From positions 407,030,001 through 407,094,000 of the forward strand of contig NW_027362762.1 in assembly GCF_046119375.1 (NCBI RefSeq): a DNA stretch of 64,000 bases, given 5' to 3'. The position numbers and the translations under genes are program-made. The notes below the pieces were generated by a model. It did not search any database. It was given only the letters and a program-made list of their open reading frames with translations, and was not told the origin of the DNA. This DNA is from Phyllobates terribilis (lineage: Eukaryota). Of the stretch, positions 1,981-43,738 are shown one piece after another; positions within the stretch are counted from its first letter, which is position 1, and each line of letters opens with the position of its first letter.

Positions 1981-2479
1981 ACCAAGCCATTTTCCCCGTC
2001 GCCACCATTTTCTCACTGCTGCAGCTGCGTGTTAGACGGCACCGCTGTTGCTGTGTGCGCTATACCTTGTTAATTTCAAGCCAATTTTCGCACAAATCTA
2101 CAGATAGCTTGGGAGTAGGGAATAGTTGTGATTGCAGTCCTTTTAAGGACTAGGTTACAGCATTTCCTACGACTTTTATCAGGCAGGTCTGTGCTCTTAA
2201 ATAGATAGATTGTGGGAGTAAAGACTAATTGTAATTGGAGTCCTTTTCAGGACTAGGTTACATCAGTTCCTATCAGTTTTTGCCAGGCAGGTCTGTGCCA
2301 GTGCTGTGCAAATTTTTTTCACAGCATTTGGCTGAATCTAGCAAAGCTAATCCTTTTTGGCCTATTGCAGAGTGTGTTAGTCAGTGGAGTAGCCTATCTG
2401 TGTTGCAAGATATACCACCTGTGTATAGAATACCAATTTTTTTACTGCACCTAGTGAAGTAAAATCTTTTGGGCATAGC

Positions 2480-4715
2480 ATCATTCTATTAGTCCATCTA
2501 TACTGACCTCCATCAGGTTGCAAATTGAATATAATTTTTTTCTGCATCTAGCTCTGAAAAAATATTGGGCTTCTAGCTGTGTGTGGGACTTGTTGTATTA
2601 GTCCATCTATACTGACCTCCATCAGGTTGCAAACTGCATATATTTTTTTCTTCATCTACCTCTGAAAAAATATTGGGCTTCTAGCTGTGTGTGGGACTTG
2701 TTCTATTAATCCATCTATACAGACCTCCATCAGGTTGCAAACTGAATATATTTTTTTCTGCATCTACCTCTGAAAAAATATTGGGCTTCTAGCTGTGTGT
2801 GGGACTTGTTGTATTAGTCCATCTATACTGACCTCCATCAGGTTGCAAACTGAATATATTTTTTTCTGCATCTACCTCTGAAAAAATATTGGGCTTCTAG
2901 CTGTGTGTGGGACTTGTTCTATTAATCCATCTATACAGACCTCCATCAGGTTGCAAACTGAATATATTTTTTTCTGCATCTACCTCTGAAAAAATATTGG
3001 GCTTCTAGCTGTGTGTGGGACTTGTTCTATTAATCCATCTATACAGACCTCCATCAGGTTGCAAACTGAATATATTTTTTTCTGCATCTACCTCTGAAAA
3101 AATATTGGGCTTCTAGCTGTGTGTGGGACTTGTTGTATTAGTCCATCTATACTGACCTCCATCAGGTTGCAAACTGAATATATTTTTTTCTGCATCTACC
3201 TCTGAAAAAATATTGGGCTTCTAGCTGTGTGTAGGACTTGTTCTATTAATCCATCTATACAGACCTCCATCAGGTTGCAAACTGAATATATTTCTTTCTG
3301 CATCTACCTCTGAAAAAATATTGGGCTTCTAGCTGTGTGTGGGACTTGTTGTATTAGTCCATCTATACTGACCTCCATCAGGTTGCAAACTGAATATATT
3401 TTTTTCTGCATTTAAATCTGAAAAAATATTGGGCTTCTAGCTGTGTGTGGGACTTGTTCTATTAATCCATCTATACAGACCTCCATCAGGTTGCAAATTG
3501 AATATAATTTTTTTCTGCATCTAGCTCTGAAAAAATATTGGGCTTCTAGCTGTGTGTGGGACTTGTTGTATTAGTCCATCTATACTGACCTCCATCAGGT
3601 TGCAAACTGCATATATTTTTTTCTTCATCTACCTCTGAAAAAATATTGGGCTTCTAGCTGTGTGTGGGACTTGTTCTATTAATCCATCTATACAGACCTC
3701 CATCAGGTTGCAAACTGAATATATTTTTTTCTGCATCTACCTCTGAAAAAATATTGGGCTTCTAGCTGTGTGTGGGACTTGTTGTATTAGTCCATCTATA
3801 CTGACCTCCATCAGGTTGCAAACTGAATATATTTTTTTCTGCATCTACCTCTGAAAAAATATTGGGCTTCTAGCTGTGTGTGGGACTTGTTCTATTAATC
3901 CATCTATACAGACCTCCATCAGGTTGCAAACTGAATATATTTTTTTCTGCATCTACCTCTGAAAAAATATTGGGCTTCTAGCTGTGTGTGGGACTTGTTC
4001 TATTAATCCATCTATACAGACCTCCATCAGGTTGCAAACTGAATATATTTTTTTCTGCATCTACCTCTGAAAAAATATTGGGCTTCTAGCTGTGTGTGGG
4101 ACTTGTTGTATTAGTCCATCTATACTGACCTCCATCAGGTTGCAAACTGAATATATTTTTTTCTGCATCTACCTCTGAAAAAATATTGGGCTTCTAGCTG
4201 TGTGTAGGACTTGTTCTATTAATCCATCTATACAGACCTCCATCAGGTTGCAAACTGAATATATTTCTTTCTGCATCTACCTCTGAAAAAATATTGGGCT
4301 TCTAGCTGTGTGTGGGACTTGTTGTATTAGTCCATCTATACTGACCTCCATCAGGTTGCAAACTGAATATATTTTTTTCTGCATCTACCTCTGAAAAAAT
4401 ATTGGGCTTCTAGCTGTGTGTGGGACTTGTTCTATTAATCCATCTATACAGACCTCCATCAGGTTGCAAACTGAATATATTTTTTTCTGCATCTACCTCT
4501 GAAAAAATATTGGTCTTCTAGCTGTGTGTGGGACTTGTTCTATTAATCCATCTATACAGACCTCCATCAGGTTGCAAACTGAATATATTTTTTTCTGCAT
4601 CTAGCTCTGAAAAAATATTTGGCCTTCTAGCAGTGTGTGGGACTTTCTCTATTAGTCCATCTATACTGACCTCCATCAGGTTGCAAATTGAATATAATTT
4701 TTTTCTGCATCTAAC
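2480..4715. repeat. 108-bp tandem array (~21 units) with a duplicated 9-unit, 973-bp higher-order repeat
   Basis: The ttgggcttctagc motif recurs every 108 nt (2565, 2673, 2781...). Diagnostic variants recur at +973: caaattg 2521/3494, gtaggact 3231/4204, atatttcttt 3288/4261. Confidence 0.95.
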
Positions 4716-4829
4716 CCAGCCAATAGTTTTGGCCTAATACCACAGTTTGGCCACTCAGCTCTGCTCGGTTCCCATCCATTGTTTTTTTGTGCAAACAACT
4801 CCAGAGTTGTTAATTAGTTAACCACCAAA

Positions 4830-7800
4830 ATGAGTGGAAAAAGGCCTGCTGCTGATGGAAAGGGGAATAGGCGTGTTGGGAAGGGGAAAAAAGGTTGTGT
4901 CCGTGGGGTAGGTGTTAAAGCAACAGTAACATCTGCAGAAGAAAGACCATCTTCCAGCCAAACTAAAATGTCTACTTCTTTTAGCGGACAATGTGATAAG
5001 ATCCCTTTCTTACGGCCACGCCAATCACTACAAATTCCAGATGAGGCACAAAAACAGCAGGTGCTTCAACGGATATCAAGTGCTCCTTTAAGTGGGCTCT
5101 CCTCCACATCAACTTCAACATCACAAATACTCCAGTCCTCAAAGGTGTCACCCCAATCGCACTTGCTTCCTCACAGCTCCCAAATCTCCAGTTGCCCGTC
5201 TGAGTATGAGGTAGAACAGATGGTTGAGTCTGCAGAGCTGTTTACTCATACTATAGCCTGGGAATCAGAGGTCGACTCCAGCGCTTCTGTGAATCCAGAC
5301 GAGGAAATGATCTGCACTGATGCCCAGAATCTTTATGAGTCGGATCCAGGACCAGACGCAGAAGGTTCTGACCATAATGTAGACCCTCATTCCCAAACTG
5401 TAACTCCTGTTGGTGGAGACAATGAGGAAGACGATGATAAGACTCAAATACCTGATTGGAGCGACAACTTTAGTTTTTTGTCAGGGCAGGAACAGGTTGG
5501 CTCTGAGTACGACGGGTGTGATAACGCACAGGGTGATGAAGATGAGGTTGGAGATCCCACTTACTGTCAACCCACAGTCAGCCAAGAGATGAGGTCAGCA
5601 GAGGAGGTGGAGGAAGATGCTAGTGACGACGAGGTCAGGTTGCGCCTTCCTGGACAGAGACGTAGTACTGGAAGCACGTCAACAACTGCATCCTCAAACA
5701 CAACTCTGCCTCTCACCACAAGTCGTGGTGGCTCTTCAGGTCGCATGGGTGCTAAGCCTTGCATAGCCTGGGCATTTTTTCAGATCGATAAAGATGACCC
5801 AACTCGTGTTATCTGTAACATTTGTCAGCAAAAGCTAAGTAGAAGCCAAAAAATACATAGTTTGAGTACTTCATGCATGAACCGGCACATGGACATGAAG
5901 CATAAGTTGCAGTGGGAAGCTCAGTGTGCTACAATGCGGCCTAGCCGGCCGGGCCAACCACCGTCTGCCATATCTTGTGCATCCGCGGCCTCTTCATCCT
6001 CTGTGACTGGGGGGACAGCAGTCACACCTGTTTTGGGGCGCAGACCTGCCACCTCTTTACCCGCAACAGCCAGCGTGATTGGCAGGTCATCATTTTCTTT
6101 GGAGGTGGTAACACCAGCTGGTGTTGAGTGCTGTCCGACATCGATAGCACCACCTTTGGATCAAGGCAACCTAACATGTCCGCCTGCATCTTCCTCACAG
6201 ACCGGCAGTTTGCCGGGGACACCCTTATCAACCCCGTCTAAGCACAATAGCCAGCCCTCGGTCGCTCAGATGTGGACAAGTAAAAGACCACTTCCTCCTA
6301 GCCATGAGAAAGCTAAGAGGTTGAATTTCACCATCTGCAAGTTCTTGGCTACAGAAATGCTGCCTTTCCGCCTGGTGGACACAGAGAATTTTCGAGACCT
6401 TATGTCCGTCGCAGTGCCCCAGTACCAGATGCCCAGTCGGCACTACTTCTCAAAGAAAGGTGTGCCTGCGCTCCACCAGCATGTCGCACACAACATCACC
6501 GCTTCTTTGAGAAACTCTGTGTGTGACAGGGTGCATTTCACCACAGACACTTGGACGAGTAGGCATGGACAGGGGCGTTACATGTCGCTGACTGGGCACT
6601 GGGTATCTATGGTGACAGCAGGACAAGGGGCTGCTGTCCAAGTCTTGCCGTCCCCACGAGTTGTGCGTCAATCCTCTTTATGTCAAAGTTCCTCCACTGC
6701 TTCTGCCTCCTCAACCTCCTCTCAGTCTTCCACCTGCACCCAAAGCCTGTCTGGTCATGCCACAAGCTTTCTAACTGCGCAGAAGGGATCCTGCACACCT
6801 CCTTACTATGCTGGCAGTAGGGCTCAACGTCATCAGGCGGTTTTTACATTGAAATGTCTGGGAAATGTGAGTCACACAGCTGAGGAGTTGTGGTCAGCTC
6901 TGGAGAACCAATTTCATGAATGGTTGTCTCCACTGGACCTGAAACCAGGGAAGGCCGTGTGCGACAATGCTGCAAACCTGGGTGCGGCCCTTCGCCGGGG
7001 CAATGTCACACACGTGCCTTGTATGGCTCACGTGTTGAACCTGGTTGTCGAGCAATTTTTAGCCCACTATCCCAGACTAGATGGCCTTCTGCAGAGGGCA
7101 CGGTCGCTGTGTGCTCACTTTCGCCGTTCGCATCCCGCAGCTCAGCGACTTACATCTCTACAGAAGTCGTTGGGCCTGCCACTTCACCGGCTAAAATGCG
7201 ATGTGCCTACCCGGTGGAATTCAACTCTGCACATGTTGCAGCGACTGTGGCAGCACCGACAAGCCCTGGTGCAATACGTTCTGACGTATAGCCTGGGCCA
7301 ACGAGATCCAGAGGTGGGGCAAATCACGCTGGAGGAGTGGTCTCAGATCAGGGACCTATGCACCCTTCTGCACAGTTTTGAAATGGCGACGAAGATGTTT
7401 AGTGCTGACGATGCCATTATCAGCATGACTATTCCGGTGATTTACATGCTGGAGCACATGTTAAACAGAATTCGGAGTCAGATGGTGGCACAAGAGGAGG
7501 TGGAGGAAGTAGAGGAGGAGGAGTTGTATGCGGAAGGGCTAACATCTGCAAGGTCCAGACGGTCGGCAGCACCAAGGCGGCAGGCATGTGAGGGTGGGGG
7601 AGATGGTTTTACCAGGGCGCATGGTAGCAGCCAAACTAGTGAGGAAGGTGCATCAGCCCAGGAAGAAGTGGAGGACGAACTGATGGAAGACTCATCAGAT
7701 GAGGGAGACCTTGATCACATTTCTGTTGTGCGAGGTTGGGGGGAGAGGACAGAGGAAGGAAGCATGATTGTTACCTCGCCACCAACACAACAGGGACTTG

Positions 7801-8531
7801 GTGCTCCTGGATGCGTAACACACATGAGTGCCTTCTTGCTGCACTACCTGCAACATGACCCTCGAATTGTGAGAATTAGAAATAATCCTGACTACTGGGT
7901 TGCCACACTGTTAGATCCCCGGTACAAAAGTAAATTTGCAGAAATTATTCCTGCCATAGAAAGGGATGCACGCATGCAGGAGTATCAGCAGAGACTGTTG
8001 CAGAATCTTACATGTGCTTTTCCACAAAATACCAGTGGTGCACGTAGTGAATCTCACAGTTCCAACTTGCCAACCGTGGGACCGTCAAGTGTTCAGCACT
8101 CAAACCGTAACAGAACCACAGTATCTGCTGGTAACATCAATTTTGCGGAATCATTTCACCACTTTTTTAGCCCATCCTTTGCAAGGCCACAGGAGACAAG
8201 AAGTCTGACACATAGTCAACGCCTAGAGACGATGGTACAGGAGTATCTCCAAGTAAACATTGAAGCCACGACTGTGTCACTGGACCCTTGCTCTTTTTGG
8301 GCTTCCAATCTGGATAAATGGCCGGAGCTAGCCACTTACGCCTTGGAGATCTTGTCATGCCCCGCAGCCAGCGTTCTGTCTGAACGTGTGTTCAGCGCTG
8401 CTGGTGGTGTGCTGACAGATAAGCGCACGCGGCTCTCCACTGATAATGTAGACAGACTCACGTTCATAAAGATGAACAAATCATGGATCCGAAACGACTT
8501 TTCTACCCCTGTGTCATCCTGGGGAGAGTAA
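4830..8531 (+). CDS. hAT transposase with BED zinc finger, intact 1233 aa
   Basis: BED finger (WAFF...CNIC...HMDMKH); catalytic D (FTTDTW), D (VCDNAAN) and E (SVLSERVFSAAG); CxxH (CMAH); TRWNS; LLDPRYK; C-terminal dimerisation domain; no stops. Confidence 0.96.
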   Translation: MSGKRPAADGKGNRRVGKGKKGCVRGVGVKATVTSAEERPSSSQTKMSTSFSGQCDKIPFLRPRQSLQIPDEAQKQQVLQRISSAPLSGLSSTSTSTSQILQSSKVSPQSHLLPHSSQISSCPSEYEVEQMVESAELFTHTIAWESEVDSSASVNPDEEMICTDAQNLYESDPGPDAEGSDHNVDPHSQTVTPVGGDNEEDDDKTQIPDWSDNFSFLSGQEQVGSEYDGCDNAQGDEDEVGDPTYCQPTVSQEMRSAEEVEEDASDDEVRLRLPGQRRSTGSTSTTASSNTTLPLTTSRGGSSGRMGAKPCIAWAFFQIDKDDPTRVICNICQQKLSRSQKIHSLSTSCMNRHMDMKHKLQWEAQCATMRPSRPGQPPSAISCASAASSSSVTGGTAVTPVLGRRPATSLPATASVIGRSSFSLEVVTPAGVECCPTSIAPPLDQGNLTCPPASSSQTGSLPGTPLSTPSKHNSQPSVAQMWTSKRPLPPSHEKAKRLNFTICKFLATEMLPFRLVDTENFRDLMSVAVPQYQMPSRHYFSKKGVPALHQHVAHNITASLRNSVCDRVHFTTDTWTSRHGQGRYMSLTGHWVSMVTAGQGAAVQVLPSPRVVRQSSLCQSSSTASASSTSSQSSTCTQSLSGHATSFLTAQKGSCTPPYYAGSRAQRHQAVFTLKCLGNVSHTAEELWSALENQFHEWLSPLDLKPGKAVCDNAANLGAALRRGNVTHVPCMAHVLNLVVEQFLAHYPRLDGLLQRARSLCAHFRRSHPAAQRLTSLQKSLGLPLHRLKCDVPTRWNSTLHMLQRLWQHRQALVQYVLTYSLGQRDPEVGQITLEEWSQIRDLCTLLHSFEMATKMFSADDAIISMTIPVIYMLEHMLNRIRSQMVAQEEVEEVEEEELYAEGLTSARSRRSAAPRRQACEGGGDGFTRAHGSSQTSEEGASAQEEVEDELMEDSSDEGDLDHISVVRGWGERTEEGSMIVTSPPTQQGLGAPGCVTHMSAFLLHYLQHDPRIVRIRNNPDYWVATLLDPRYKSKFAEIIPAIERDARMQEYQQRLLQNLTCAFPQNTSGARSESHSSNLPTVGPSSVQHSNRNRTTVSAGNINFAESFHHFFSPSFARPQETRSLTHSQRLETMVQEYLQVNIEATTVSLDPCSFWASNLDKWPELATYALEILSCPAASVLSERVFSAAGGVLTDKRTRLSTDNVDRLTFIKMNKSWIRNDFSTPVSSWGE

Positions 8532-13520: not shown

Positions 13521-13722
13521 CCGATACTTGTAATGCCCATGCACTTTGTGTATGGGCTGAAAAATATATATCTCTGGGGGGTATACATGAACATACTGTA
13601 TACATTTTTTTTTACGGGCATCATGAACACCCTTTATAAAAATGATGTGGGTGTTGCATCACGGACAACGGTGACCCTGGTGATATGGTGGTGAAGGATG
13701 AGGAGAAGGAGGAGGACAAGAG

Positions 13723-14939
13723 TGTAGTGCCGGCGTCCCTGCCCTCTGCTAGGCAGGGACGCTGCTCCCCTCACCGCTCTGCCCCGTGCCCGGCGTCCCT
13801 CTCCCGCTCTGCTGTCAGCGCGCGCTCCTTCCCGGCGTCCTCCTCCCGCTCTGCTCTCTGCGCGCGCTCCTTCCCGGCCCCTGTGCTTAGGGCGCGCGCG
13901 CGCGCTCCCCTCCTCTTATAGGGGCCGCGCGCGTCGTCCTAAGGAGTCCCCGGCCAATGGCCGGAGGACTTCATCATATATAAGGCACCTCCTCCAAAAT
14001 GGAGGTGCCCGAGCAATGTTGTTTGCACCTGTGTCTCACCTTTGCTTCAGCCCTCAGGTCCCGTTGCCAGTTACCTGCCAGTTACCTGTCAGATTCCTGC
14101 CTGATTACTTGCTACCTGTCTGCTAGTCTGAGGTCCGACGGTCTAACTTACTACTCCTGTCAGTCTGTCTAAGGACCAGCCTGCCCGCTCACCTGGGAGC
14201 GCTTCTCCGCTACCTGCCTGCTTGCCTGCCCGGAGGCTCCGCTGTCACGTGCTGTGACCACCAGCTATTCCAGAGACTCTCGCCCGCTCACCTGGGAGCG
14301 CACATCAGCTACCTGCCTGCCTGCCTGAGGTCCGACGGTCTGCCTACCAACTCCTGTCAGTCTGTCTATGGACCAGCTTGCCCGCTCACCTGGGAGCGCA
14401 CATCTGCTATCTGCCTGCTAAGCCTACCTGGAGGCTCCGCCGTCACGTGCTGTGACCACCTGCCTGTCCAGTGACTCCTGCCCGCTCACCTGGGAGCGCT
14501 CATCTGCTACCTGTCTGTTTGCCTACCCGGAGGCTCTGCTGTCACGTGCTGTGACCACCCGCCTGTCCAGAGACTTCTGCCCGCTCACCTGGGAGCGCTC
14601 ATCTGTCGCCTGTCCGCTGGTCTTCCTGGAGGCTCCGCCGTCACATGCTGTGACCACCCGTTCATCCAGAGACTCTCGCCTGCTCACCTGGGAGCTCTCG
14701 TCTATCTTCAGCCGCCACAGGTCGTACCAACCCTATACCTAGAGACTGCCCCGGTTACTTGCCGTGACCTCCAGCCCCGTTCACTCAGAGACTGTCCCGT
14801 TCACTCAGAGACTGTCCCGTTCACTCAGAGACTGTCCAGGTCACCTCCTGTGACTGCCTGCCTGGTCGCCACCCGCTCCCGTACAAGGACCGCCCCCTTG
14901 TATTGTAGCCCAGAGGTTCCGCCTCCCAGACCCGTTACA
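13723..14939 (+). repeat. 5' LTR (1217 bp)
   Basis: tgtagtgccg...ccgttaca; about 11 substitutions and one 2-bp indel versus the 3' LTR by eye. Confidence 0.96.
13954..13983 (+). promoter_or_regulatory. LTR promoter: CCAAT and TATA box
   Basis: CCAAT 13954-13958 and TATATAA 13977-13983, downstream of a GC-rich U3. Confidence 0.7.
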
Positions 14940-14950
14940 GTTGCTCGGGC
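14940..14950 (+). promoter_or_regulatory. Self-priming primer-binding site (not tRNA-type)
   Basis: TTGCTCGGGC (14941-14950) is the exact reverse complement of LTR 14007-14016. No TGG tRNA-type PBS follows the LTR. Confidence 0.8.
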
Positions 14951-14951
14951 C

Positions 14952-15902
14952 ATGGAACCCGGTGGCACCCAAGCTCCCTCGCTCTCGGACCTGTGTGATG
15001 AACTGTCCCGTCAAAGGTCCCAACAGGAGTCCATCTTGGGTCACCTGCGGAATGTCAATACTCGCCTGGATACTCTGACTGCTCCACCGACAACCTCCGC
15101 CAGTGCCATGTCTCGCAATCCGGCAGCTCCGCTGCCCACTAATACCATGGTATCCTACCCCGGACCCCGGATTTCTGCACCTCCTCGCTTCGGAGGCGAC
15201 TCCGTCCAGGCTCGGGGCTTCATAAATCAGTGCACCCTGCACTTTGAACTATTGTCCCACCAGTTTAACTCCGACCGAGCCAAAATTGCATTCATCATGT
15301 CCCATCTCACCGGGGAGGCTCTGGCCTGGCTAAATCCTCTATGGGAGAGAGGAGACCCCCTGGTGTCCAACTTGCCTGCTTTTCTCACGGCTTTCCGGAA
15401 AGTCTTCGACGAACCCGGACGGAAGACCTCATCCGCATCATCATTGCTACGCCTCCGTCAGGAAAGCCTCACCGTGGGCCAATATGCCATACGGTTCCGT
15501 ACCCTTGCCTCGGAGCTGGCCTGGGATAACGACGCTCTGGTTTCCGTCTTCTGGGAGGGTCTGTCCGGCCGTATTAAAGATGAACTTGCCGGTCGGGACA
15601 TTCCTACCACTCTCGATGACTTAATAACTCTTGCCACCCGGATTGACCTACGGTTCCAGGAGCGTGCCAGAGAGGTCACCCGTGAGAGGAGGTTACTACG
15701 TCTAGCTCCTACTTTTCAGAAACCCGTCACTCCTTCTGTCTCTAACCAGGTACACCCTCCTGAGCCTATGCAGGTCGACCAGACCAAGATGGTCAAGACC
15801 CGTCAGGACTTACGCCGTGCCGAGGGGACCTGCTTCTACTGTGGCAGTAAGGAGCACCGGATCCATGCCTGCCCGGAGAGGTTGGGAAACGCCTGTGTCT
15901 AG
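14952..15902 (+). CDS. gag: Gag (capsid plus CCHC zinc knuckle)
   Basis: ATG immediately after the PBS; PPRFGGD...RGFINQC capsid motif; CFYCGSKEHRIHAC = CX2CX4HX4C. The ORF-track start at 14850 is a GTG inside the LTR. Confidence 0.93.
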   Translation: MEPGGTQAPSLSDLCDELSRQRSQQESILGHLRNVNTRLDTLTAPPTTSASAMSRNPAAPLPTNTMVSYPGPRISAPPRFGGDSVQARGFINQCTLHFELLSHQFNSDRAKIAFIMSHLTGEALAWLNPLWERGDPLVSNLPAFLTAFRKVFDEPGRKTSSASSLLRLRQESLTVGQYAIRFRTLASELAWDNDALVSVFWEGLSGRIKDELAGRDIPTTLDDLITLATRIDLRFQERAREVTRERRLLRLAPTFQKPVTPSVSNQVHPPEPMQVDQTKMVKTRQDLRRAEGTCFYCGSKEHRIHACPERLGNACV

Positions 15903-15944
15903 GTTCGCTCAGAGAGGTCCACCTAGACAAGAATAAATCCTCTC
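15884..15944 (+). promoter_or_regulatory. -1 ribosomal frameshift signal: G GGA AAC plus predicted H-type pseudoknot
   Basis: Slippery heptamer 15884-15890 in the correct X XXY YYZ phase. Stem 1: tgtctaggt 15896-15904 / acctagaca 15921-15929. Stem 2: gagagg 15912-15917 / cctctc 15939-15944. The -1 frame is open into pol. Confidence 0.82.
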
Positions 15945-18900
15945 CATCCCTGCTGTTGTCAGTTTCAATCGTCTACGGGGAGAACCGTTATTTCGAACTA
16001 GCCCAACTGGACTCTGGAGCAGCCGGGAATCTTATTTCACAGTCCCTGGTAGAGAAATACCGCATCCCCACCAAACCTCTGGCTGTACCCTTGTCTGTGG
16101 CTGCCGTGGATGGGGGGCTCTTACCACGCCCCATCCAACTCATCACCGAATCCATTACTCTGCAGGTGGGAATGCTGCATTCTGAAAGTATCTCCTTTCA
16201 TGTTCTGCCTGGACTCTCTCACGCCCTCTTGCTAGGTCTGCCTTGGCTCCAGAAACATGCACCCGTGCTTGACTGGCAAACCGGAGAAGTCCTTCGCTGG
16301 GGACAAGACTGTCATAAGACCTGCCTGGTTCCCGTCCATCCCGTCCGTCCCTCTCCTACCCCAGCTAATCTACCTGGACTTCCGATTCCTTATTGGTCTT
16401 ATGCTGATGTCTTTAATAAAAAGGAGGCAGAGACCTTACCCCCTCATAGACCATACGACTGTCCCATCGACCTGTTACCCGGTACTACTCCTCCCCGTGG
16501 GCGTATTTATCCTTTATCCGCTGCTGAGACCCGGTCGATGTCCGAATATATTGAGGAGAATCTGGCCAGGGGATTCATCCGGAAATCTACCTCCCCGGCG
16601 GGAGCAGGCTTCTTTTTCGTCAAAAAGAAGGACGGCTCTCTCCGTCCCTGTATAGACTATAGAGGCCTAAACCAGATCACGGTGAAGAATAAGTACCCCC
16701 TTCCGCTCATTCCAGAATTATTTGATCGTCTGAGGGGGGCTAGAATCTTCACCAAACTAGACCTCCGTGGGGCATACAACCTGGTTCGTATCCGTCAGGG
16801 GGATGAATGGAAGACGGCATTCAACACCCGGGACGGCCACTATGAATACCTGGTAATGCCCTTTGGTCTCTGTAACGCTCCTGCCGTCTTTCAAGAGTTG
16901 GTCAATGACATCTTCCGGGACCTTCTCTACTCCTGCGTAGTGGTGTACCTGGACGACATCTTGGTCTTCTCTCCGGATCTCCAGACTCACCGGAGGGACG
17001 TTCGTCAGGTCCTGCTCAGGCTCAGGCAGAATCACCTCTTCGCTAAATACGAGAAGTGCCTCTTTGAGCAGACCTCGCTTCCGTTTTTGGGCTACATTAT
17101 TTCTCAGACCGGCCTACGAATGGATCCAGAGAAACTGTCTGCCATCGAGAAATGGCCCCGACCGGAGGGGTTGAAAGCCATTCAGCGGTTCCTGGGCTTC
17201 GCCAACTACTACCGCCTCTTCATACCACACTTCTCTTCCCGGACTGCCCCAATTTCCGCGCTCACCCGTAAGGGTACTAATCCCAAACAGTGGCCGCCCG
17301 AAGCAGAAGAAGCCTTTCTTTCCTTAAAACAGGCCTTCTCTTCCGCCCCGGTGCTGCATCGCCCGGACGGCAACAAGCAGTTCTTCCTGGAAGTGGACGC
17401 CTCCTCCTCTGGAGCTGGAGCGGTACTTACTCAAAAATCTTCTTCCGGGAGGATGGTAACTTGCGGCTTCTTCTCTAAACTCTTCTCCTCCTCAGAGCGC
17501 AATTATTCCATAGGAGATCGAGAGTTATTGGCCATCAAACTGGCATTGGAGGAGTGGCGTTACCTGCTTGAGGGGGCTCTTCACCCGGTAATAATTTACA
17601 CTGACCAAAAGAACTTGGCTTACCTCCAGCATGCCCAGAGACTTAACCCGCGCCAAGCCCGGTGGTCCTTGTTTTTTGCTCGTTTTGATTTTGTCCTTCA
17701 TTTTCGCCCGGCTGACAAAAACGTCAAGGCGGACGCCTTGTCTCGATCCTTTCTGGTATCTGATCTCGAGGAAGATCCGAAACACATCATCGATCCCGCC
17801 AGAGTAATGCAGGTGGCTCCCGTGAGTCTAAATCGTCTCCCTCCCGGAAAGACGTTCGTATCAGTACCTGATCGGGAGAAGATCCTTCACTGGGGTCACT
17901 TGTCTAAACTGGCTGGCCACGCTGGTCAGAAGAAGACCCTCCAGCTTATTTCCCGTCACTACTGGTGGCCTACCCTGCACAAGGATGTAATAGACTTTGT
18001 TTCTGCCTGTGTGTCCTGCGCCCGCAACAAGGTTCCGAGACATCTGCCAGCCGGTCGCCTCCTTCCGCTCCCAGTACCTGCTGCCCCCTGGCAGCATATT
18101 GCAATGGACTTCATAACTGACCTCCCACTCTCTGCCGGTTGTACGGTCATTTGGGTGGTCGCTGACCGCTTCTCCAAGATGGCTCATTTCGTTCCCCTAC
18201 CAGGCCTCCCGTCTGCACCCGAGCTAGCTAGAGACTTTATTCGTCACATCTTCCGTCTTCATGGCCTGCCCCTCCACATCGTGTCGGATCGTGGGGTACA
18301 GTTCACCTCACGCTTCTGGAGAGCCACTTGTAAACTACTAGACGTCACCCTGGACTTCTCTTCCGCTTACCACCCACAGTCCAATGGTCAAGTGGAGCGG
18401 ATCAATCAGAACCTGACCAGTTACCTCCGGCACTTCGTTAATGCCCACCATTCTGACTGGGTGGATCTCCTACCATGGGCCGAGTTCTCTTACAATAATC
18501 ACGAGAGCGAATCCTCCTCCAAATCCCCGTTTTTTGTAGTCTTTGGTCAGCATCCTAGGATTCCTTTTCCTGTCTCCACCTCGGTGGACAACCCGGCTGC
18601 GGAATCTCTCGTTAGCAAATTTTCCTCCATTTGGGAGAGTACCCGATCCGCACTCCTTCAGTCGTCCGAACGGATGAAAAGACACGCTGACAAAAAACGC
18701 CTGGATCCTCCTCAATTTCGTCCAAGAGATAAGGTCTGGCTCTCATCTAAATATGTTCGACTCAAGATACCTTCTTACAAGTTAGGGCCTCGGTTCATCG
18801 GACCTCTGGAGGTCACCAGTCAGATCAACCCGGTGGCCTATAAATTGAAACTCCCGGCCAACTTACGGATCCCTAACTCCTTCCATGTATCTCTCCTCAA

Positions 18901-19351
18901 ACCTGTGGTACTTAACTCTTTTTCCAAGTCTACAGGTACGCCTCCTGCTCCGGTTTCCGCTGAGGACGAGTTTGAGGTAGAGAACATTCTTGCCACCAAA
19001 AGGGTAAGAGGAAAGACCTTTTTTCTGGTAGATTGGAAGGGGTTTGGTCCTGAGGAGAGAACGTGGGAGCCCCGGGAGAACATCCATGCCCCTCTCATCC
19101 TAGCTAAATTTCTGTCTGGCCTAAAAAAGGGGGGGCCTAAAGGGGGGGGTACTGTAGTGCCGGCGTCCTTGCCCTCTGCTAGGCAGGGATGCTGCTCCCC
19201 TCACCGCTCTGCCCCGTGCCCGGCGTCCCTCTCCCGCTCTGCTGTCAGCGCGCGCTCCTTCCCGGCGTCCTCCTCCCGCTCTGCTCTCTGCGCGCGCTCC
19301 TTCCCGGCCCCTGTGCTTAGGGCGCGCGCGCGCGCGCTCCCCTCCTCTTAA
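15884..19351 (+). CDS. pol: Pol polyprotein (protease, RT, RNase H, integrase, chromodomain)
   Basis: LDSGA protease; VYLDDIL RT; EVDAS RNase H; HHCC plus D(AMDF)-D(VSDRG)-E(VERIN) integrase; GPRFIGP module; FEVENIL...FLVDWKGFGPEERTWEP chromodomain; no stops. Confidence 0.96.
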   Translation, partial: GKRLCLGSLREVHLDKNKSSPSLLLSVSIVYGENRYFELAQLDSGAAGNLISQSLVEKYRIPTKPLAVPLSVAAVDGGLLPRPIQLITESITLQVGMLHSESISFHVLPGLSHALLLGLPWLQKHAPVLDWQTGEVLRWGQDCHKTCLVPVHPVRPSPTPANLPGLPIPYWSYADVFNKKEAETLPPHRPYDCPIDLLPGTTPPRGRIYPLSAAETRSMSEYIEENLARGFIRKSTSPAGAGFFFVKKKDGSLRPCIDYRGLNQITVKNKYPLPLIPELFDRLRGARIFTKLDLRGAYNLVRIRQGDEWKTAFNTRDGHYEYLVMPFGLCNAPAVFQELVNDIFRDLLYSCVVVYLDDILVFSPDLQTHRRDVRQVLLRLRQNHLFAKYEKCLFEQTSLPFLGYIISQTGLRMDPEKLSAIEKWPRPEGLKAIQRFLGFANYYRLFIPHFSSRTAPISALTRKGTNPKQWPPEAEEAFLSLKQAFSSAPVLHRPDGNKQFFLEVDASSSGAGAVLTQKSSSGRMVTCGFFSKLFSSSERNYSIGDRELLAIKLALEEWRYLLEGALHPVIIYTDQKNLAYLQHAQRLNPRQARWSLFFARFDFVLHFRPADKNVKADALSRSFLVSDLEEDPKHIIDPARVMQVAPVSLNRLPPGKTFVSVPDREKILHWGHLSKLAGHAGQKKTLQLISRHYWWPTLHKDVIDFVSACVSCARNKVPRHLPAGRLLPLPVPAAPWQHIAMDFITDLPLSAGCTVIWVVADRFSKMAHFVPLPGLPSAPELARDFIRHIFRLHGLPLHIVSDRGVQFTSRFWRATCKLLDVTLDFSSAYHPQSNGQVERINQNLTSYLRHFVNAHHSDWVDLLPWAEFSYNNHESESSSKSPFFVVFGQHPRIPFPVSTSVDNPAAESLVSKFSSIWESTRSALLQSSERMKRHADKKRLDPPQFRPRDKVWLSSKYVRLKIPSYKLGPRFIGPLEVTSQINPVAYKLKLPANLRIPNSFHVSLLKPVVLNSFSKSTGTPPAPVSAEDEFEVENILATKRVRGKTFFLVDWKGFGPEERTWEPRENIHAPLILAKFLSGLKKGGPKGGGTVVPASLPSARQGCCSPHRSAPCPASLSRSAVSARSFPASSSRSALCARSFPAPVLRARARALPSS
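19123..19149 (+). promoter_or_regulatory. Polypurine tract (two adjacent purine runs)
   Basis: aaaaaaggggggg (19123-19135), cct, aaagggggggg (19139-19149), ending 3 nt before the 3' LTR. Confidence 0.85.
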
Positions 19352-20371
19352 AGGGGCCGCGTGCGTCGTCCTAAGGAGTCCCCGGCCAATGGCCGGAGGA
19401 CTTCATCATATATAAGGCACCTCCTCCAAAATGGAGGTGCCCGAGCAATGTTGTTTGCACCTGTGTCTCACCTGTGCTTCAGCCCTCAGGCCCCGTTGCC
19501 AGTTACCTGCCAGTTACCTGTCAGATTCCTGCCTGATTACTTGCTACCTGTCTGCTAGTCTGAGGTCCGACGGTCTGCCTTACTACTCCTGTCAGTCTGT
19601 CTAAGGACCAGCCTGCCCGCTCACCTGGGAGCGCTTCTCCGCTACCTGCCTGCTTGCCTGCCCGGAGGCTCCGCTGTCACGTGCTGTGACCACCAGCTAT
19701 TCCAGAGACTCTCGCCCGCTCACCTGGGAGCGCACATCAGCTACCTGCCTGCCTGCCTGAGGTCCGACGGTCTGCCTACCAACTCCTGTCAGTCTGTCTA
19801 TGGACCAGCTTGCCCGCTCACCTGGGAGCGCACATCTGCTATCTGCCTGCTAAGCCTACCTGGAGGCTCCGCCGTCACGTGCTGTGACCACCTGCCTGTC
19901 CAGTGACTCCTGCCCGCTCACCTGGGAGCGCTCATCTGCTACCTGTCTGTTTGCCTACCCGGAGGCTCTGCCGTCACGTGCTGTGACCACCCGCCTGTCC
20001 AGAGACTTCTGCCCGCTCACCTGGGAGCGCTCATCTGTCGCCTGTCCGCTGGTCTTCCTGGAGGCTCCGCCGTCACATGCTGTGACCACCCGTTCATCCA
20101 GAGACTCTCGCCTGCTCACCTGGGAGCTCTCGTCTATCTTCAGCCGCCACAGGTCGTACCAACCCTATACCTAGAGACTGCCCCGGTCACTTGCCGTGAC
20201 CTCCAGCCCCGTTCACTCAGAGACTGTCCCGTTCACTCAGAGACTGTCCCGTTCACTCAGAGACTGTCCAGGTCACCTCCTGTGACTGCCTGCCTGGTCG
20301 CCACCCGCTCCCTTACAAGGACCGCCCCCTTGTATTGTAGCCCAGAGGTTCCGCCTCCCAGACCCGTTACA
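19153..20371 (+). repeat. 3' LTR (1219 bp)
   Basis: Near-identical to the 5' LTR; followed by TSD AAGAG. Confidence 0.96.
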
Positions 20372-20489
20372 AAGAGCAAATAGCCAAAATCAGGAAGCAT
20401 ATACCCATGTGTGGGTGTGAAAAGGTGCATGGGAATACACCTCCCAAAAAAAGACACTGGATTTGAGTTTGTTACGTTGCTATTTTTTG

Positions 20490-33798: not shown

Positions 33799-36700
33799 CA
33801 TTACAGTGCTTGGCTGGCTGCTCAGCGTCATCAGGTCTATATAAGTATACCCCGGAAACAGGCAGAGTAGGGAGAAATGCTGCTGAGTCAGGGAGAGATT
33901 TGCTTGTTTATAGATAGTATAGGTATTCCACAACATATATCTATATCCATTTGAACTAACAGTCCTTCTGAGGACTAATCCAGCTGCATATATTCAGTGG
34001 TGATAGCAGAAGTTAGGCAGTTAGGGTATGTGGCAGACTGCAGGTCATACAGCACAAGAGGGTCCATAGCACATTCTGACTGATCCTGCTGTGACAGATA
34101 TTTGTAGACAAAGCCCCAGATATCAGGGGCTAGGGCTAATTTTTTTTATCTTAATCCTGGCTATTTGTTTAAAAAGCAAGGCAGGCAGGGTATGTGACAG
34201 ACTGCAGTGCATGATACAGCACAAGAGGGTCCATTGCACGTTCTGACTGCTTCTATAACAGATATTTGTAGACATAGCCGCAGGTATCAAGGGCCAGGGC
34301 TATTTTTTTTTTAATCTTAATCCTGATTATTTGCTTCAAACCAATCCAGAGTACACAATTTTTCTGCTCCATTTGCCGAATACAGCCAGATCTTTTCCAT
34401 ATTACAGCGATAAAAATCCAGAAATTTGTAGGGAACATGGAAAATATTGGCCTCCATTTCCATTTTGTTGCAGTGTGTCAGCAAAGCTATTCACACGAGG
34501 TTGTTGTGAAGAATAGTATTAGTAAGCTACAGGCCTGCAATTTACAACCGTGGTTCTTCATCAGACGTATCACATAAATGCGTTCCAAAATCAGCCATTT
34601 CTGGCTTCAATTTTCATTTTGTTGCAGTGTGTCAGCAAAGCTACTGACACAAGGTCGCTGTGAAGAATGCTATTAGTAAACTACAGGTCTGCAATTTAAA
34701 ACCGTGGTTCTCTGTCAGACGTATCACATATAACTGCGTTTCAAAATCAGCCATTTCTGGCTCCTATTACCATTTTGTTGCAGTGTGTCAGCAAAGTTAT
34801 TCACACGAGGTCGCTGTGAAGAATAGTATTAGTAAACTACAGGCCCGCAATTTAAAACTGTGGTTCTCCGTCAGACGAATCACATATAACTGCGGTTCAA
34901 ATCCAGCCATTTGTAGTGAACGTGGAAATTATTGTCCTCCATTTGTAGATTGTAGCAGTGTGTCAGTGTACACCATTTTACAGCTCCATTTGCTTGTTTG
35001 CAGAATACAGCCAGATTTTTTTAGTTTTATTCATATTGCTGTATTGTGGGAGCAGAGGAATTTTTTTCAATGATCAGACGCACGTGATCCACATGACTGC
35101 TGTAATAATACAGAAATTTTGTTGAGCCTGCCAAATATTCCACTCCATTTAAAGTCAGCCAGCAGTTTTTTGTTGAACCAATTGATACTTGGTCGCTGAC
35201 ACATACTATACTATTAGGCGACTGCCTGAAAACGTGGCCATCAGACGTTATCACATATGACTGCCCTAATAATCCAGCAATTTTTGTGAGCATGTCAAAT
35301 ATTACACACTATTCAAAGTATTGCAGTTGTTGGTTCAAACCTATTCATAGTTGGCCGCTGGCAAATAGCATATCTGTGATCAATGTTGTCAGAGTGTTAC
35401 GCCACTTTTACGGACTGACAAAAAAAACATACAAAAAACAAGCTAAAATGGAAAAAATGTTAAGAAACATTCTTTCCTGGTTAATGACTTTTATATAAGG
35501 CCAAAGAAATAAAACAAATAAAGATATGGACTGTGGAAGACATTTATGTGACCAGAATGAACACACATTACAGTGCTTGGCTGGCTGCTCAGCGTCATCA
35601 GGTCTATATAAGTATACCACGGAAACAGGCAGAGTAGGGAGAAATGCTGCTGAGTCAGGGATAGATTTGCTTGTTTATAGATAGTATAGGTATTCCACAA
35701 CATATATCTATATCCATTTGAACTAACAGTCCTTCTGAGGACTAATCCAGCTGCATATATTCAGTGGTGATAGCAGAAGTTAGGCAGTTAGGGTATGTGG
35801 CAGACTGCAGGTCATACAGCACAAGAGGGTCCATAGCACATTCTGACTGATTCTGCTGTGACAGATATTTGTAGACAAAGCCCCAGATATCAGGGGCCAG
35901 GGCTAATTTTTTTTATCTTAATCCTGGCTATTTGTTTAAAAAGCAAGGCAGGCAGGGTATGTGACAGACTGCAGTGCATGATACAGCACAAGAGGGTCCA
36001 TTGCACGTTCTGACTGCTTCTGTTACAGATATTTGTAGACATAGCCGCAGGTATCAAGGGCCAGGGCTATTTTTTTTTTTAATCTTAATCCTGATTATTT
36101 GCTTAAAACCAATCCAGAGTACACAATTTTTCTGCTCCATTTGCTTGTTAGCACTGCCGAATACAGCCAGATCTTTTCCATATCACAGCGATAAAAATCC
36201 AGAAATTTGAAGGGAACGTGGAAAATATTGGCCTCCATTTCCATTTTGTTGCAGTGTGTCTGCAAAGCTATTCACACGAGGTTGTTGTGAAGAATAGTAT
36301 TAGTAAGCTACAGGCCTGCAATTTACAACCGTGGTTCTCCATCAGACGTATCACATAAATGCGGTCCAAAATCAGCCATTTCTGGTTTCAATTTTCATTT
36401 TGTTGCAGTGTGTCAGCAAAGCTACTCACATGAGGTCGCTGTGAAGAATACTATTAGTAAACTACAGGTCTGCAATTTAAAACCGTGGTTCTCTGTCAGA
36501 CGTATCACATATAACTGCGTTTCAAAATCTGTCATTTCTGGCTCCTATTTCCATTTTGTTGCAGTGTGTCAGCAAAGTTATTCACACGAGGTCGCTGTGA
36601 AGAATAGTATTAGTAAACTACAGGCCCGCAATTTAAAACTGTGGTTCTCCGTCAGACGAATCACATATAACTGCAGTTCAAATCCAGCCATTTGTAGTGA

Positions 36701-41493: not shown

Positions 41494-43738
41494 ATGGAAT
41501 TTGTGAGGAATATGGAGAGAAGACGTTTGATAAAGCCTCAGGATATTCTGGCTACTTTGCAATCCATACCGGAGGATGAATCGGAATCCGAATTGCAGGA
41601 ACATGTATTTGATTCTGACAGTGATGAAGATTTCATTCCTCAGAACATATCAAGTGAATCTGAAGACTCAGAAGGAACAAATCCAGAAGGTAAGTAGTTA
41701 TGTGTATTTATTTGTTCTTCCACACACTGAGTTAGGGCCTGTGCACACTAGCAGAATTCTGGCTGAATAGCCATCTGGATATTCTTGCCGCAATACAGGC
41801 CGTACCTGCCCGCTCATGCCTGAAGCTCCGCTCCGAACCCCGGGCTGGAGCCGCTGTCAGGGACAGAGCAGCGCTTGCTTACGCGCGAGCACGGCTCCGT
41901 CCCAGACAGCGGCTCCAGCCCGGGGTTCGGAGCGGAGCTTCAGGTATGAAACTCCGCTCTGTACCTGAGCGGGCAGGTACGGGCCGGATTGTGGTGAGAA
42001 TATCCGGTCGGATATTCCGCCGCTAATCCAGCCAGTGTGCACGGACCCTTACAAAACAAAAATTCTAAATATTCATCAACTTTTTTACAGATATTCCAAG
42101 CACATCAACTGGGGATCGGGCTCATGCAGTTATGTTGCCTCGTGACCATCCTCCTGGTCGTGGACAGAAAAAATCAGCAAAACGTCCCAGAAATGAAAGA
42201 ACAACAGATAACGATGGCGGCGAAGGTAATGCAACAACAAACACCAGAGAAGGCGAATCTGAAGGAATACTAGTTTCAGCGGATGGTATTCAATGGAAAC
42301 CTGTTGAAATTGGAGAACACTTGCCTGGTAGGCGTGACAGCCAAAATATTCTTCGAGAAGCACCTGGCCCTACAGGATACGCCAGAAGAAATATCATTAT
42401 CGATAGTCTTTGAGCGCATGGCGTTTATTTTTTGATTCATATATATTGACACATATAAAGAACTGTACGCTTGCAGAAGCATGCAGGAACAATAATTTAC
42501 AGTTTACTCTATCTGATGAGGAGCTAGATGCATTCGTTGCGATATTCTATGCTCGTGGAATATCTGGCACGAACCGTCACTCGATTAGCAGTATTTGGTG
42601 TAATGACTGGGGAATACCGTTTTGCAAAGCGACAATGTCTAGGGACCGCTTTGTTGAAATTATGAGGTTTCTCAGATTTGATGAGAAATCTACTCGATCG
42701 GAGAGACTGCAAACGGACAAGTTTGCTCTATTTTCTACTGTGTGGGACAGGTTTATTGAAAATTGTATTGCGTGTTACAAACCTGGCCCATACATAACGG
42801 TGGATGAGCAACTTTTCCCAAGCAAAACTAGGTGTCCATTCACGCAGTACATGCCTTCCAAACCAGATAAATATGGCCACAAATATTGGCTAGCTGTTGA
42901 TAAGAGGAGCAAATATCTGGCAAATGGCTTCCCTTATCTAGGCAAAGATGACACACGCCGTGCTGAGGACCGTTTAGCTGACCATGTGGTAATGAAGTTA
43001 TTGGACCCGTTTTTGAAAAAAGGTCGCAATGTTACAACCGATAATTATTTTACTTCAGTAAAATTAGCTAAACAGCTAAAAAGCAAAGGAACAACCATCG
43101 TGGGAACACTGAACAAGATAAGGCGAGAAGTGCCTAAAGAAATAAAATCCATGAAAGAGGAATTGTACAACACTAAAGTGTTTAGAAATGAAGACAATTT
43201 TACACTTACAGTATATCAAGGAAAGCCCAACAAAAATGTTGTCATTTTGAGTTCCGTCCATCCAGATGTTGTTGTTGCGTCTGATTCCGCTAAAAAAACT
43301 CCAGAAACGGTAAAGTTTTACAATGAAACAAAATATGGAGTAGATGTAGTGGATCAGATGGCACGAAAATATACCACACGAACATGCACAAGGAGATGGC
43401 CTGTTCATGCATTTGAAAATGCCTTAGACTTTGCGGGTATAAATGCATGGATAATATTCAAAGAGATTACCCACCAAAAAATGTCACGCAAGGCATTTTT
43501 GCAAACGCTTGTGAGAGAGTTGAGTGGTCCTTATGTCACAGATAGGGAAAAGGGTTCCACGTCCCAAGTTTCTACATGCTCAGAAGTGATGGTTCAAACA
43601 AAATTTTGCCAGATCAAAGAAAAGTGCAAGAAAAATAGATCTGTCGGAAATTGTAAGACTTGTGGTAAGTCTTTGTGTGGGCAATGTACTGCCATAAATC
43701 AAAGGCAATGCCTAAAATGCGAAACACCAAATGTTTAG
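41494..43738 (+). pseudogene. Spliced piggyBac transposase (exons 41494-41689 and 42091-43738) with one frameshift at ~42408
   Basis: Acidic N-terminus; GAAG|gtaagt donor and ttttttacag| acceptor join in frame. Catalytic VDEQL, TDNYFTS and GVDVVDQ. C-terminal cysteine-rich domain (CQIKEKC...CKTCGKSLCGQC...CLKC). Adding one base restores DSPLSAW. Confidence 0.88.
41735..42048. mobile_element. PIF/Harbinger-type foldback MITE inside the piggyBac intron
   Basis: TIRs GGGCCTGTGCACACT / AGTGTGCACGGACCC; TTA TSD (41732-41734 / 42049-42051); long internal palindrome. Confidence 0.85.

What the first reader, a model, noticed from the sequence alone, without database searches (positions are those of the whole stretch)
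14007..14950. tRNA-independent self-priming architecture in a frog LTR retrotransposon
Seen: the 11 nt after the 5' LTR (GTTGCTCGGGC) pair with GCCCGAGCAAT at 14007-14017 (10 Watson-Crick pairs plus one G-U), which starts 30 nt after the TATA box, and there is no tRNA PBS. Established: S. pombe Tf1 primes by pairing the first 11 nt of its mRNA to the PBS, and this mode has been proposed for vertebrate Tf1/sushi elements. Here the looped-out R/U5 is ~920 nt, and the gag AUG is 1 nt from the duplex, so priming and translation could be mutually exclusive (inference).
Basis: partly seen in the sequence, partly recalled or inferred. Interest (0 to 1): 0.7.

Follow-up and report, generated by a model that had tools for sequence, protein, structure and literature searches.

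The report
Self-priming Tf1/sushi-type vertebrate retrotransposon
This is a young copy of a very abundant jumping gene whose primer site does not match a tRNA end but pairs with 10 bases of its own terminal repeat, and related families keep this pairing with different letters, so it likely starts copying itself with its own predicted RNA end, a trick already shown in yeast Tf1 and already proposed for vertebrate relatives.

Summary
The pairing is real, but one detail is wrong. The window holds an intact Ty3/gypsy chromovirus (13723-20371; LTRs 98.9% identical; 5-bp target duplication). Its LTR/PBS junction is a rare one-base-short variant: 5 copies against 15,909 in the genome. The family layout is LTR end, 2-nt spacer, then exactly 10 Watson-Crick pairs, so the G-U pair belongs to this copy only. 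Of 140 related elements fetched, 105 had a recognisable junction. In 66 of these the 10-mer two bases past the LTR has a perfect complement in the element's own LTR, against 0-7 at any other offset. That complement usually lies 27-31 nt after a TATA-like box. Nine PBS/primer letter types track their own LTR. Tf1-type self-priming is therefore very likely. The RNA start and the cleavage were not measured, and only tRNA-Lys(UUU) could be screened. The long loop (194-978 nt in relatives) and the 1-nt AUG distance (1-27 nt) vary, so neither is required. Self-priming is already proposed in print for the Tf1/sushi group, and this scan noted it before on other genomes. New member of a known kind, with good comparative support.

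The parts
13718..13722 (+). 5-bp target-site duplication AAGAG (left copy)
13723..14939 (+). 5' LTR, TG...CA, 1217 bp
   Evidence: 98.9% identical to the 3' LTR (11 substitutions, one 2-nt indel)
13977..13983 (+). TATA box (TATATAA), 30 nt before the predicted RNA start
   Evidence: TATA-like box 27-31 nt before the complement in 85 of 95 relatives, 3.3% at random positions
14007..14016 (+). Predicted first 10 nt of the RNA = predicted self-primer GCCCGAGCAA
   Evidence: the start itself is inferred, not mapped
14016..14126 (+). 36-codon upstream ORF whose AUG is nt 10-12 of the predicted RNA; seen in the window's subfamily and in L162, not in the other clades
14110..14837 (+). Tandem arrays inside R/U5 (99-bp unit x5.3 at 14183-14703; 20-bp unit x3.1 at 14776-14837) that account for much of the loop length
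14915..14921 (+). U5 arm predicted to pair with 14953-14959 (U5-leader stem covering U and G of the gag AUG); not shown by a control
14940..14950 (+). Spacer plus primer-binding site; this copy is one T shorter than the family's common junction
14952..15902 (+). gag ORF (316 aa; Retrotrans_gag, Ty3_capsid, DUF4939; Cys/His knuckle seen in the translation)
15884..15890 (+). GGGAAAC slippery heptamer, followed by a predicted stem and pseudoknot; pol is in the -1 frame
   Evidence: same heptamer as PEG10 (passage in PMC11299033)
15851..19351 (+). pol frame, open for 1166 codons: protease, RT, RNase H, integrase, Tf2-like SH3, chromodomain
19139..19152 (+). Polypurine tract, then T and a 2-nt spacer (AC) before the 3' LTR; mirrors the 2-nt spacer on the PBS side
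19153..20371 (+). 3' LTR, 1219 bp
20372..20376 (+). Target-site duplication AAGAG (right copy)

Best explanation
This is a young Ty3/gypsy chromovirus whose primer-binding site pairs with a 10-mer in its own LTR, and it likely primes minus-strand DNA synthesis as Tf1 does: the predicted first 10 nt of its RNA would anneal to the PBS and would be cut off by the element's RNase H to serve as primer. Shown: element anatomy; a 10-bp complement placed two bases past the LTR end; its position about 30 nt after a TATA-like box; co-change of both strands across subfamilies. Inferred: the RNA starts at 14007 (TATA distance, and a T before the G in every lineage's typical copies); cleavage between nt 10 and 11 (Tf1 is cut between 11 and 12); RT first copies the 2-nt spacer, giving a cDNA with two extra base pairs per end that integrase trims (recalled from Ty3 and retroviruses; the PPT side has the matching 2-nt spacer). 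Whether the primer comes from the same RNA molecule or from the co-packaged copy cannot be told from sequence.
For: Offset test: 66 of 105 relatives have a perfect complement for the 10-mer at LTR end +2; 0-7 of 105 at 23 other offsets. Swap matrix over seven PBS types: 66 hits on the diagonal, 4 off it. 95 of 105 score at least 9 of 10 (G-U counted as half), and 85 of these 95 have a TATA-like box 27-31 nt upstream, against 3.3% at random. The types map to distinct clades whose capsid regions are 35-97% identical to the window's (quick tree). An eighth type turns up in an older clade, with 9 of 10 pairs in 5 copies. A ninth was found from the primer side: of 12 5' LTRs with primer position 9 changed, 11 carry the complementary PBS change (10 perfect), and these 11 are one subfamily. 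No TGG after the LTR in 0 of 106. Chromodomain and Tf2-like SH3 domain. Published passages state that Tf1/sushi elements self-prime.
Against: No RNA 5' end, cleavage product or strong-stop cDNA was observed. 35 of 140 fetched loci had no junction under my PBS-side motifs; a motif-free rescan gave a plausible one for 12 of them (picked by eye) and the rest are unresolved. 39 of 105 are imperfect, 10 of them below 9 of 10. In whole-leader folding the duplex has probability 0.42 in the window, at least 0.9 in 4 of 11 relatives, 0.56 in one and at most 0.1 in 6. The flanking 'pretzel' stems are not established: the U5-leader swap matrix is not diagonal. Only one tRNA isotype was screened. Kin share letters, so the nine types are at most about eight events, not 66.
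Confidence: 0.9

Rival explanations
1. The pairing is real and selected, but serves translation control, dimerisation or packaging; reverse transcription is primed by something else.
For: The gag AUG lies beside the duplex in the window's clade and within or at the end of a predicted U5-leader stem in the other lineages. Covariation shows pairing, not priming.
Against: The paired segment sits at a fixed +2 from the LTR end in all lineages, where synthesis has to begin, and mirrors the 2-nt PPT spacer. The AUG distance varies from 1 to 27 nt. No other primer site is present.
Confidence: 0.05
2. A host tRNA fragment or other small RNA primes at this PBS, and the LTR complement is incidental.
For: Only tRNA-Lys(UUU) was screened (65 gene copies); half-tRNA priming is known in copia lineages (passage in PMC6317226).
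Against: No TGG start in 106 elements; longest exact match to the tRNAs found is 5 nt. Nine PBS types follow the element's own LTR, which would need a different host RNA for each.
Confidence: 0.03
3. One reading: an 11-nt primer with a terminal G-U pair directly against the LTR end, as a working design.
For: It is what the window sequence shows.
Against: 5 copies against 15,909. In the common junction of this subfamily positions 11 and 12 are mismatches. A post-insertion deletion or a homopolymer assembly error explains the window.
Confidence: 0.03
4. Chance complementarity.
For: A 10-mer in a 1.2-kb GC-rich LTR; 24 inverted pairs lie in the region.
Against: About 7e-4 anywhere in the LTR; offset, swap and TATA controls.
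Confidence: 0.01

Closest known systems
Tf1/Tf2 of Schizosaccharomyces pombe (and Tj1 of S. japonicus)
   Same: Chromovirus; no tRNA PBS; PBS complementary to the 5' end of its own RNA. For Tf1, pairing of the first 11 nt and RNase H cleavage between nt 11 and 12 are stated in PMC7175516 (passages).
   Different: Predicted 10-nt primer after a 2-nt spacer; loop of up to about 980 nt with tandem arrays; gag and pol joined by a predicted -1 frameshift in this clade; the three-duplex 'pretzel' (passage) was not established here; nothing biochemical is shown.
[quoted passage not shown] 2001)
   Same: Self-priming already proposed for the group (passages in 10.1101/2022.12.06.519325, PMC6317226 and PMC4600332). 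Amn-san is the most abundant chromodomain-bearing LTR family in Silurana (Xenopus) tropicalis (passages in PMC4131045).
   Different: Butler 2001 was seen only as a citation, so I cannot say whether it gives the 10+2 geometry or covariation. No tree against the named elements was built. The zebrafish-dominated Sushi LTR model has AATAAA near the LTR 3' end; 44 of 45 elements of this clade have none of 12 hexamer variants.
PEG10 and related domesticated sushi-type genes
   Same: GGGAAAC slippery site with a downstream stem or pseudoknot; DUF4939 Gag domain.
   Different: Those are host genes; this is an LTR-bounded mobile element with at least 15,909 junction-bearing copies.

Membership tests
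Ty3/gypsy chromovirus | LTRs with TG...CA ends and a target-site duplication | tested here: met
Ty3/gypsy chromovirus | gag, then PR-RT-RNase H-integrase order | tested here: met
   best solved relative is Ty3 Gag-Pol
Ty3/gypsy chromovirus | Chromodomain at the integrase C-terminus | tested here: met
   PF00385, E 4.3e-11, residues 1041-1087
Tf1/sushi group | No PBS for a tRNA 3' CCA end | tested here: met
   TGG within 6 nt of the LTR end in 0 of 106
Tf1/sushi group | No priming by an internal tRNA fragment | tested here: inconclusive
   only tRNA-Lys(UUU) recovered; best match 5 nt
Tf1/sushi group | PBS complementary to an LTR segment at the predicted RNA 5' end, kept by compensatory change | tested here: met
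Tf1/sushi group | RNA 5' end coincides with the first base of the complement | not testable with these tools
   no holder on record as RNA; contigs cannot show a start
Tf1/sushi group | RNase H cleavage releases the primer; cDNA is primed by it | not testable with these tools
   needs biochemistry
Tf1/sushi group | Three-duplex 'pretzel' around the PBS | tested here: inconclusive
   a U5-leader duplex of -7 to -18 kcal/mol is predicted in every lineage, but swapped partners score as well; the third duplex is only 2-4 bp by eye
Tf1/sushi group | RT phylogeny with Tf1, sushi-ichi and Amn elements | not tested
Sushi LTR model of PMC3601003 (zebrafish-dominated); not filed as a member | AATAAA close to the LTR 3' end | tested here: not met
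   canonical hexamer in 0 of 45 elements of this clade and 2 of 51 of the others
Amn-san family | Placement with Amn-san by pol sequence | not tested
   resemblance from PMC4131045 passages only

The most novel reading that the evidence does not exclude
The primer writes its own binding site. If the 10-nt self-primer stays on the minus strand and is copied during plus-strand synthesis, a mutation at the RNA 5' end passes into the PBS of later progeny. That would let these elements drift through primer sequences freely (nine types in one genome), and a family of tens of thousands of copies would record the intermediates. A few young copies fit: both LTRs changed with the PBS changed to match (L189, with L219/L220); both LTRs changed with the PBS unchanged (L230/L231, L320/L321). 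One does not: both LTRs changed, PBS changed to a non-matching base (L208). A U5-AUG stem could add a translate-or-package switch.
Probability: 0.35. Interest if true: 0.55.

Novelty: new member of a known kind. Interest (0 to 1): 0.3.

Why it matters
In the passages I read, self-priming is demonstrated for yeast Tf1 and only implicated or predicted for vertebrate relatives. Here one vertebrate genome supplies nine co-varying PBS/primer types and a sharp prediction (RNA start at the primer's G, cut after nt 10, two extra base pairs at each cDNA end) that existing CAGE, degradome or cDNA-end data could test. A family with at least 15,909 junction-bearing copies that needs no tRNA would also escape silencing by tRNA 3' fragments (inference). 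The mechanism itself is not new.

Tried and rejected
Start-site mapping: no RNA holder listed. Four contig runs laid on the element cover it but cannot show a start; the joints listed there do not have GT..AG ends, so they give no sign of splicing. The start remains open. tRNA screen: the genome search returned two arrays of tRNA-Lys(UUU) only. My first junction motif was wrong and matched only the window; it was replaced. U5-leader stem: predicted in all lineages, but the swap control is not diagonal, so it is not claimed. Whole-leader folding is inconsistent between copies. Automatic co-change in the window's own subfamily: of 90 single-base PBS variants at positions 2, 5 and 8, 69 keep the common primer, 4 match perfectly, 4 differ at the partner base without a perfect duplex, 7 differ elsewhere and 6 could not be scored. 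Most variants are therefore plain decay. The position-2 co-changes belong mostly to one separate subfamily, so the binomial P values printed there treat one event as many and are not used. The careful tree did not finish; the quick tree was used (135 of 141 rows). Four primary or review papers on Tf1 priming were not held; Butler 2001 was not read; supplements of PMC6317226 and the bioRxiv figure of 'pretzel' structures were not seen and may hold the spacer geometry for known elements. Searches for a published vertebrate covariation analysis (listings only, except the papers cited) showed none, which does not exclude one in subscription journals.

Full report
1. The element. The finding lies at the 5' end of a complete LTR retrotransposon. 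The LTRs are 13723-14939 and 19153-20371, TG...CA, differing by 11 substitutions and one 2-nt indel, with the duplication AAGAG on both sides. gag runs 14952-15902. A pol frame open for 1166 codons follows in the -1 frame, with protease, RT, RNase H, integrase, a Tf2-like SH3 domain and a chromodomain. The best solved relative is Ty3 Gag-Pol. GGGAAAC at 15884 is the heptamer of PEG10 (passage in PMC11299033). This is a young chromovirus. The host was not identified; the genome has 10.57 Gb.

2. The observation. The 10-nt arms 14007-14016 and 14941-14950 are fully complementary. The chance of such a complement anywhere in the LTR is about 7e-4. The eleventh, G-U pair is particular to this copy. 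All 9 sister copies read carry one more T, contigs of public runs show the same extra T behind 14940, and exact counts are 5 for the window's junction and 15,909 for the longer one. In the common form the LTR's CA is followed by a 2-nt spacer and 10 Watson-Crick pairs, and positions 11 and 12 do not pair in this subfamily.

3. Compensatory change. I fetched 140 of the 300 Gag hits listed, chosen for variety. A junction was recognised in 105, by LTR pairs first and then by fuzzy motifs written for the PBS side only; the LTR complement played no part in selection. In 66 of 105 the 10-mer at LTR end +2 has a perfect complement upstream; at 23 other offsets the count is 0-7. Seven PBS types each find their complement in LTRs of their own type (66 hits) and almost never in others (4 hits). 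95 of 105 score at least 9 of 10, and 85 of these have a TATA-like box 27-31 nt before the complement, against 3.3% of random positions. The base before the complement is T in the typical copies of every lineage and the first base is G, a pyrimidine-purine step typical of Pol II starts (the motif is recalled). The types fall on separate clades of a quick capsid tree (135 of 141 rows). Of the 35 loci without a junction, a motif-free rescan gave 12 plausible ones, among them an older clade with an eighth type at 9 of 10 pairs in five copies; the remainder are unresolved. A ninth type came from the primer side: 366 LTR matches carry a change at primer position 9, against 47,520 with the common form. 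Of the first 30 examined, 12 were 5' LTRs, and 11 of these carry the complementary PBS change. Those 11 are 95-99% alike and about 85% identical to the window over 450 nt of gag, so they count as one event.

4. tRNA priming. None of 106 elements has TGG within 6 nt of the LTR end, which excludes priming by a mature tRNA 3' end. The genome search returned only tRNA-Lys(UUU), with a best match of 5 nt, so fragments of other tRNAs were not screened. A PBS that follows its own LTR through nine types is hard to reconcile with a fixed host RNA.

5. The distance from primer to LTR end is 194-978 nt in 87 relatives; here much of it is a 99-bp tandem array. The first ATG is 1 nt after the PBS in 45 of 48 elements of this clade, but 6-11 nt in 18 and 22-27 nt in 39 of 57 others; in-frame starts at 1, 6, 7, 9 and 25-26 nt were confirmed for representatives. 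Neither feature is needed for the duplex. A U5-leader stem covering or abutting the AUG is predicted in each lineage, as the 'pretzel' model expects (passage), but swapped partners score as well, so it is not shown. Whole-leader folding gives the primer duplex 0.42 in the window, at least 0.9 in 4 of 11 relatives and at most 0.1 in 6; long-range predictions are weak, and Gag may anneal the strands (inference).

6. Mechanism. Likely steps: Pol II starts at 14007 (inferred); the RNA is translated, with Gag-Pol made by a -1 frameshift (predicted); in the particle nt 1-10 pair with the PBS (pairing supported by covariation); RNase H cuts after nt 10 (by analogy with Tf1, cut between nt 11 and 12 according to PMC7175516); RT copies the 2-nt spacer and then U5-R. 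The PPT side has a matching 2-nt spacer in all 9 elements printed, so integrase probably trims two bases from each end (recalled from Ty3 and retroviruses) and leaves a 5-bp duplication.

7. Does the primer template the PBS? Among 90 single-base PBS variants of the window-type junction, 69 keep the common primer and only 4 match perfectly, so most are decay after insertion. Among young elements with the same primer variant in both LTRs, one has the matching PBS (L189, L219/L220), two have the common PBS (L230/L231, L320/L321) and one has a non-matching change at the partner base (L208). One match in four, against a background of at most 0.4% for any change at that PBS position (64 against 15,909), is suggestive but thin. 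This is the novel case.

8. What is known. Passages in 10.1101/2022.12.06.519325, PMC6317226, PMC4600332 and PMC7175516 state that Tf1 self-primes and that the mode is shared or implicated across the Tf1/sushi group from fungi to vertebrates. PMC4131045 (passages) reports Amn-san chromoviruses as the commonest LTR family in a frog. PMC3601003 (passages) describes AATAAA in Sushi LTRs, which this clade lacks. Butler et al. 2001 and the Levin papers were seen only as citations. Five literature searches listed no vertebrate covariation study. The scan's own notes describe the same signature in shark-like, ray and moss genomes (unchecked, not used as support).

9. Verdict. A real and well-supported feature. 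It works like Tf1 and meets every Tf1/sushi criterion that could be decided from sequence; placement by RT phylogeny was not tested. The mechanism is known and already proposed for this group. What is added is the 10+2 geometry, nine co-varying types in one genome, and the correction that the G-U pair, the loop length and the AUG distance are not essential. Interest 0.3; new member of a known kind.

Noticed in passing
window 14007-14939 and relatives: No recognisable poly(A) hexamer between the predicted start and the LTR end in 44 of 45 elements of this clade (12 variants tested), unlike the published zebrafish Sushi LTR model. How transcripts end is unexplained.
   Followed up: partly
window 15884-15950: GGGAAAC plus a stem of at least 8 bp in 29 of 34 clade members with the heptamer; loop-to-downstream pairing of at least 5 bp in 26 of 34 (no shuffle control): a PEG10-like frameshift pseudoknot. 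Another clade has single open frames of about 1499 codons.
   Followed up: partly
L059 versus L064, L084, L038 leaders: In the largest sister clade the in-frame gag AUG lies 25-27 nt after the PBS, while a segment resembling the AUG-bearing arm of other clades is kept without AUG and still pairs with U5 (by eye).
   Followed up: partly
G000 genome-wide: 47,520 exact matches to a 25-nt LTR promoter/primer motif and 15,909 to the junction: a very large, recent family with relatively few solo LTRs. PF16297 gave 46,493 first-look candidates.
   Followed up: no
PBS position 8 variants: G-to-T changes (26 of 64 by my count of the listing) are almost as common as G-to-A; oxidative damage or RT error near the primer end are both possible; no control was run.
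   Followed up: no
window 4818-8531 (+): Open 1237-codon hAT transposase frame with BED finger and dimerisation domain.
   Followed up: partly
window 42407-43738 (+): 443-codon DDE_Tnp_1_7 transposase frame (piggyBac-like is a recalled label).
   Followed up: partly
window 46725-47543 (-) and 52056-52913 (+): Tc1/mariner-type DDE_3 transposase frames.
   Followed up: partly
window 2426-4778: Tandem array of about 20 copies of a 108-bp unit, mostly 96-100% alike.
   Followed up: no
window 33799-36693: Direct duplication with about 1.77-kb spacing, 96-99% identical.
   Followed up: no
G000 C1 about 816.9-817.9 Mb and C11 about 574-575.8 Mb: Large arrays of tRNA-Lys(UUU) genes, about 1.05-kb spacing on C1.
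   Followed up: no
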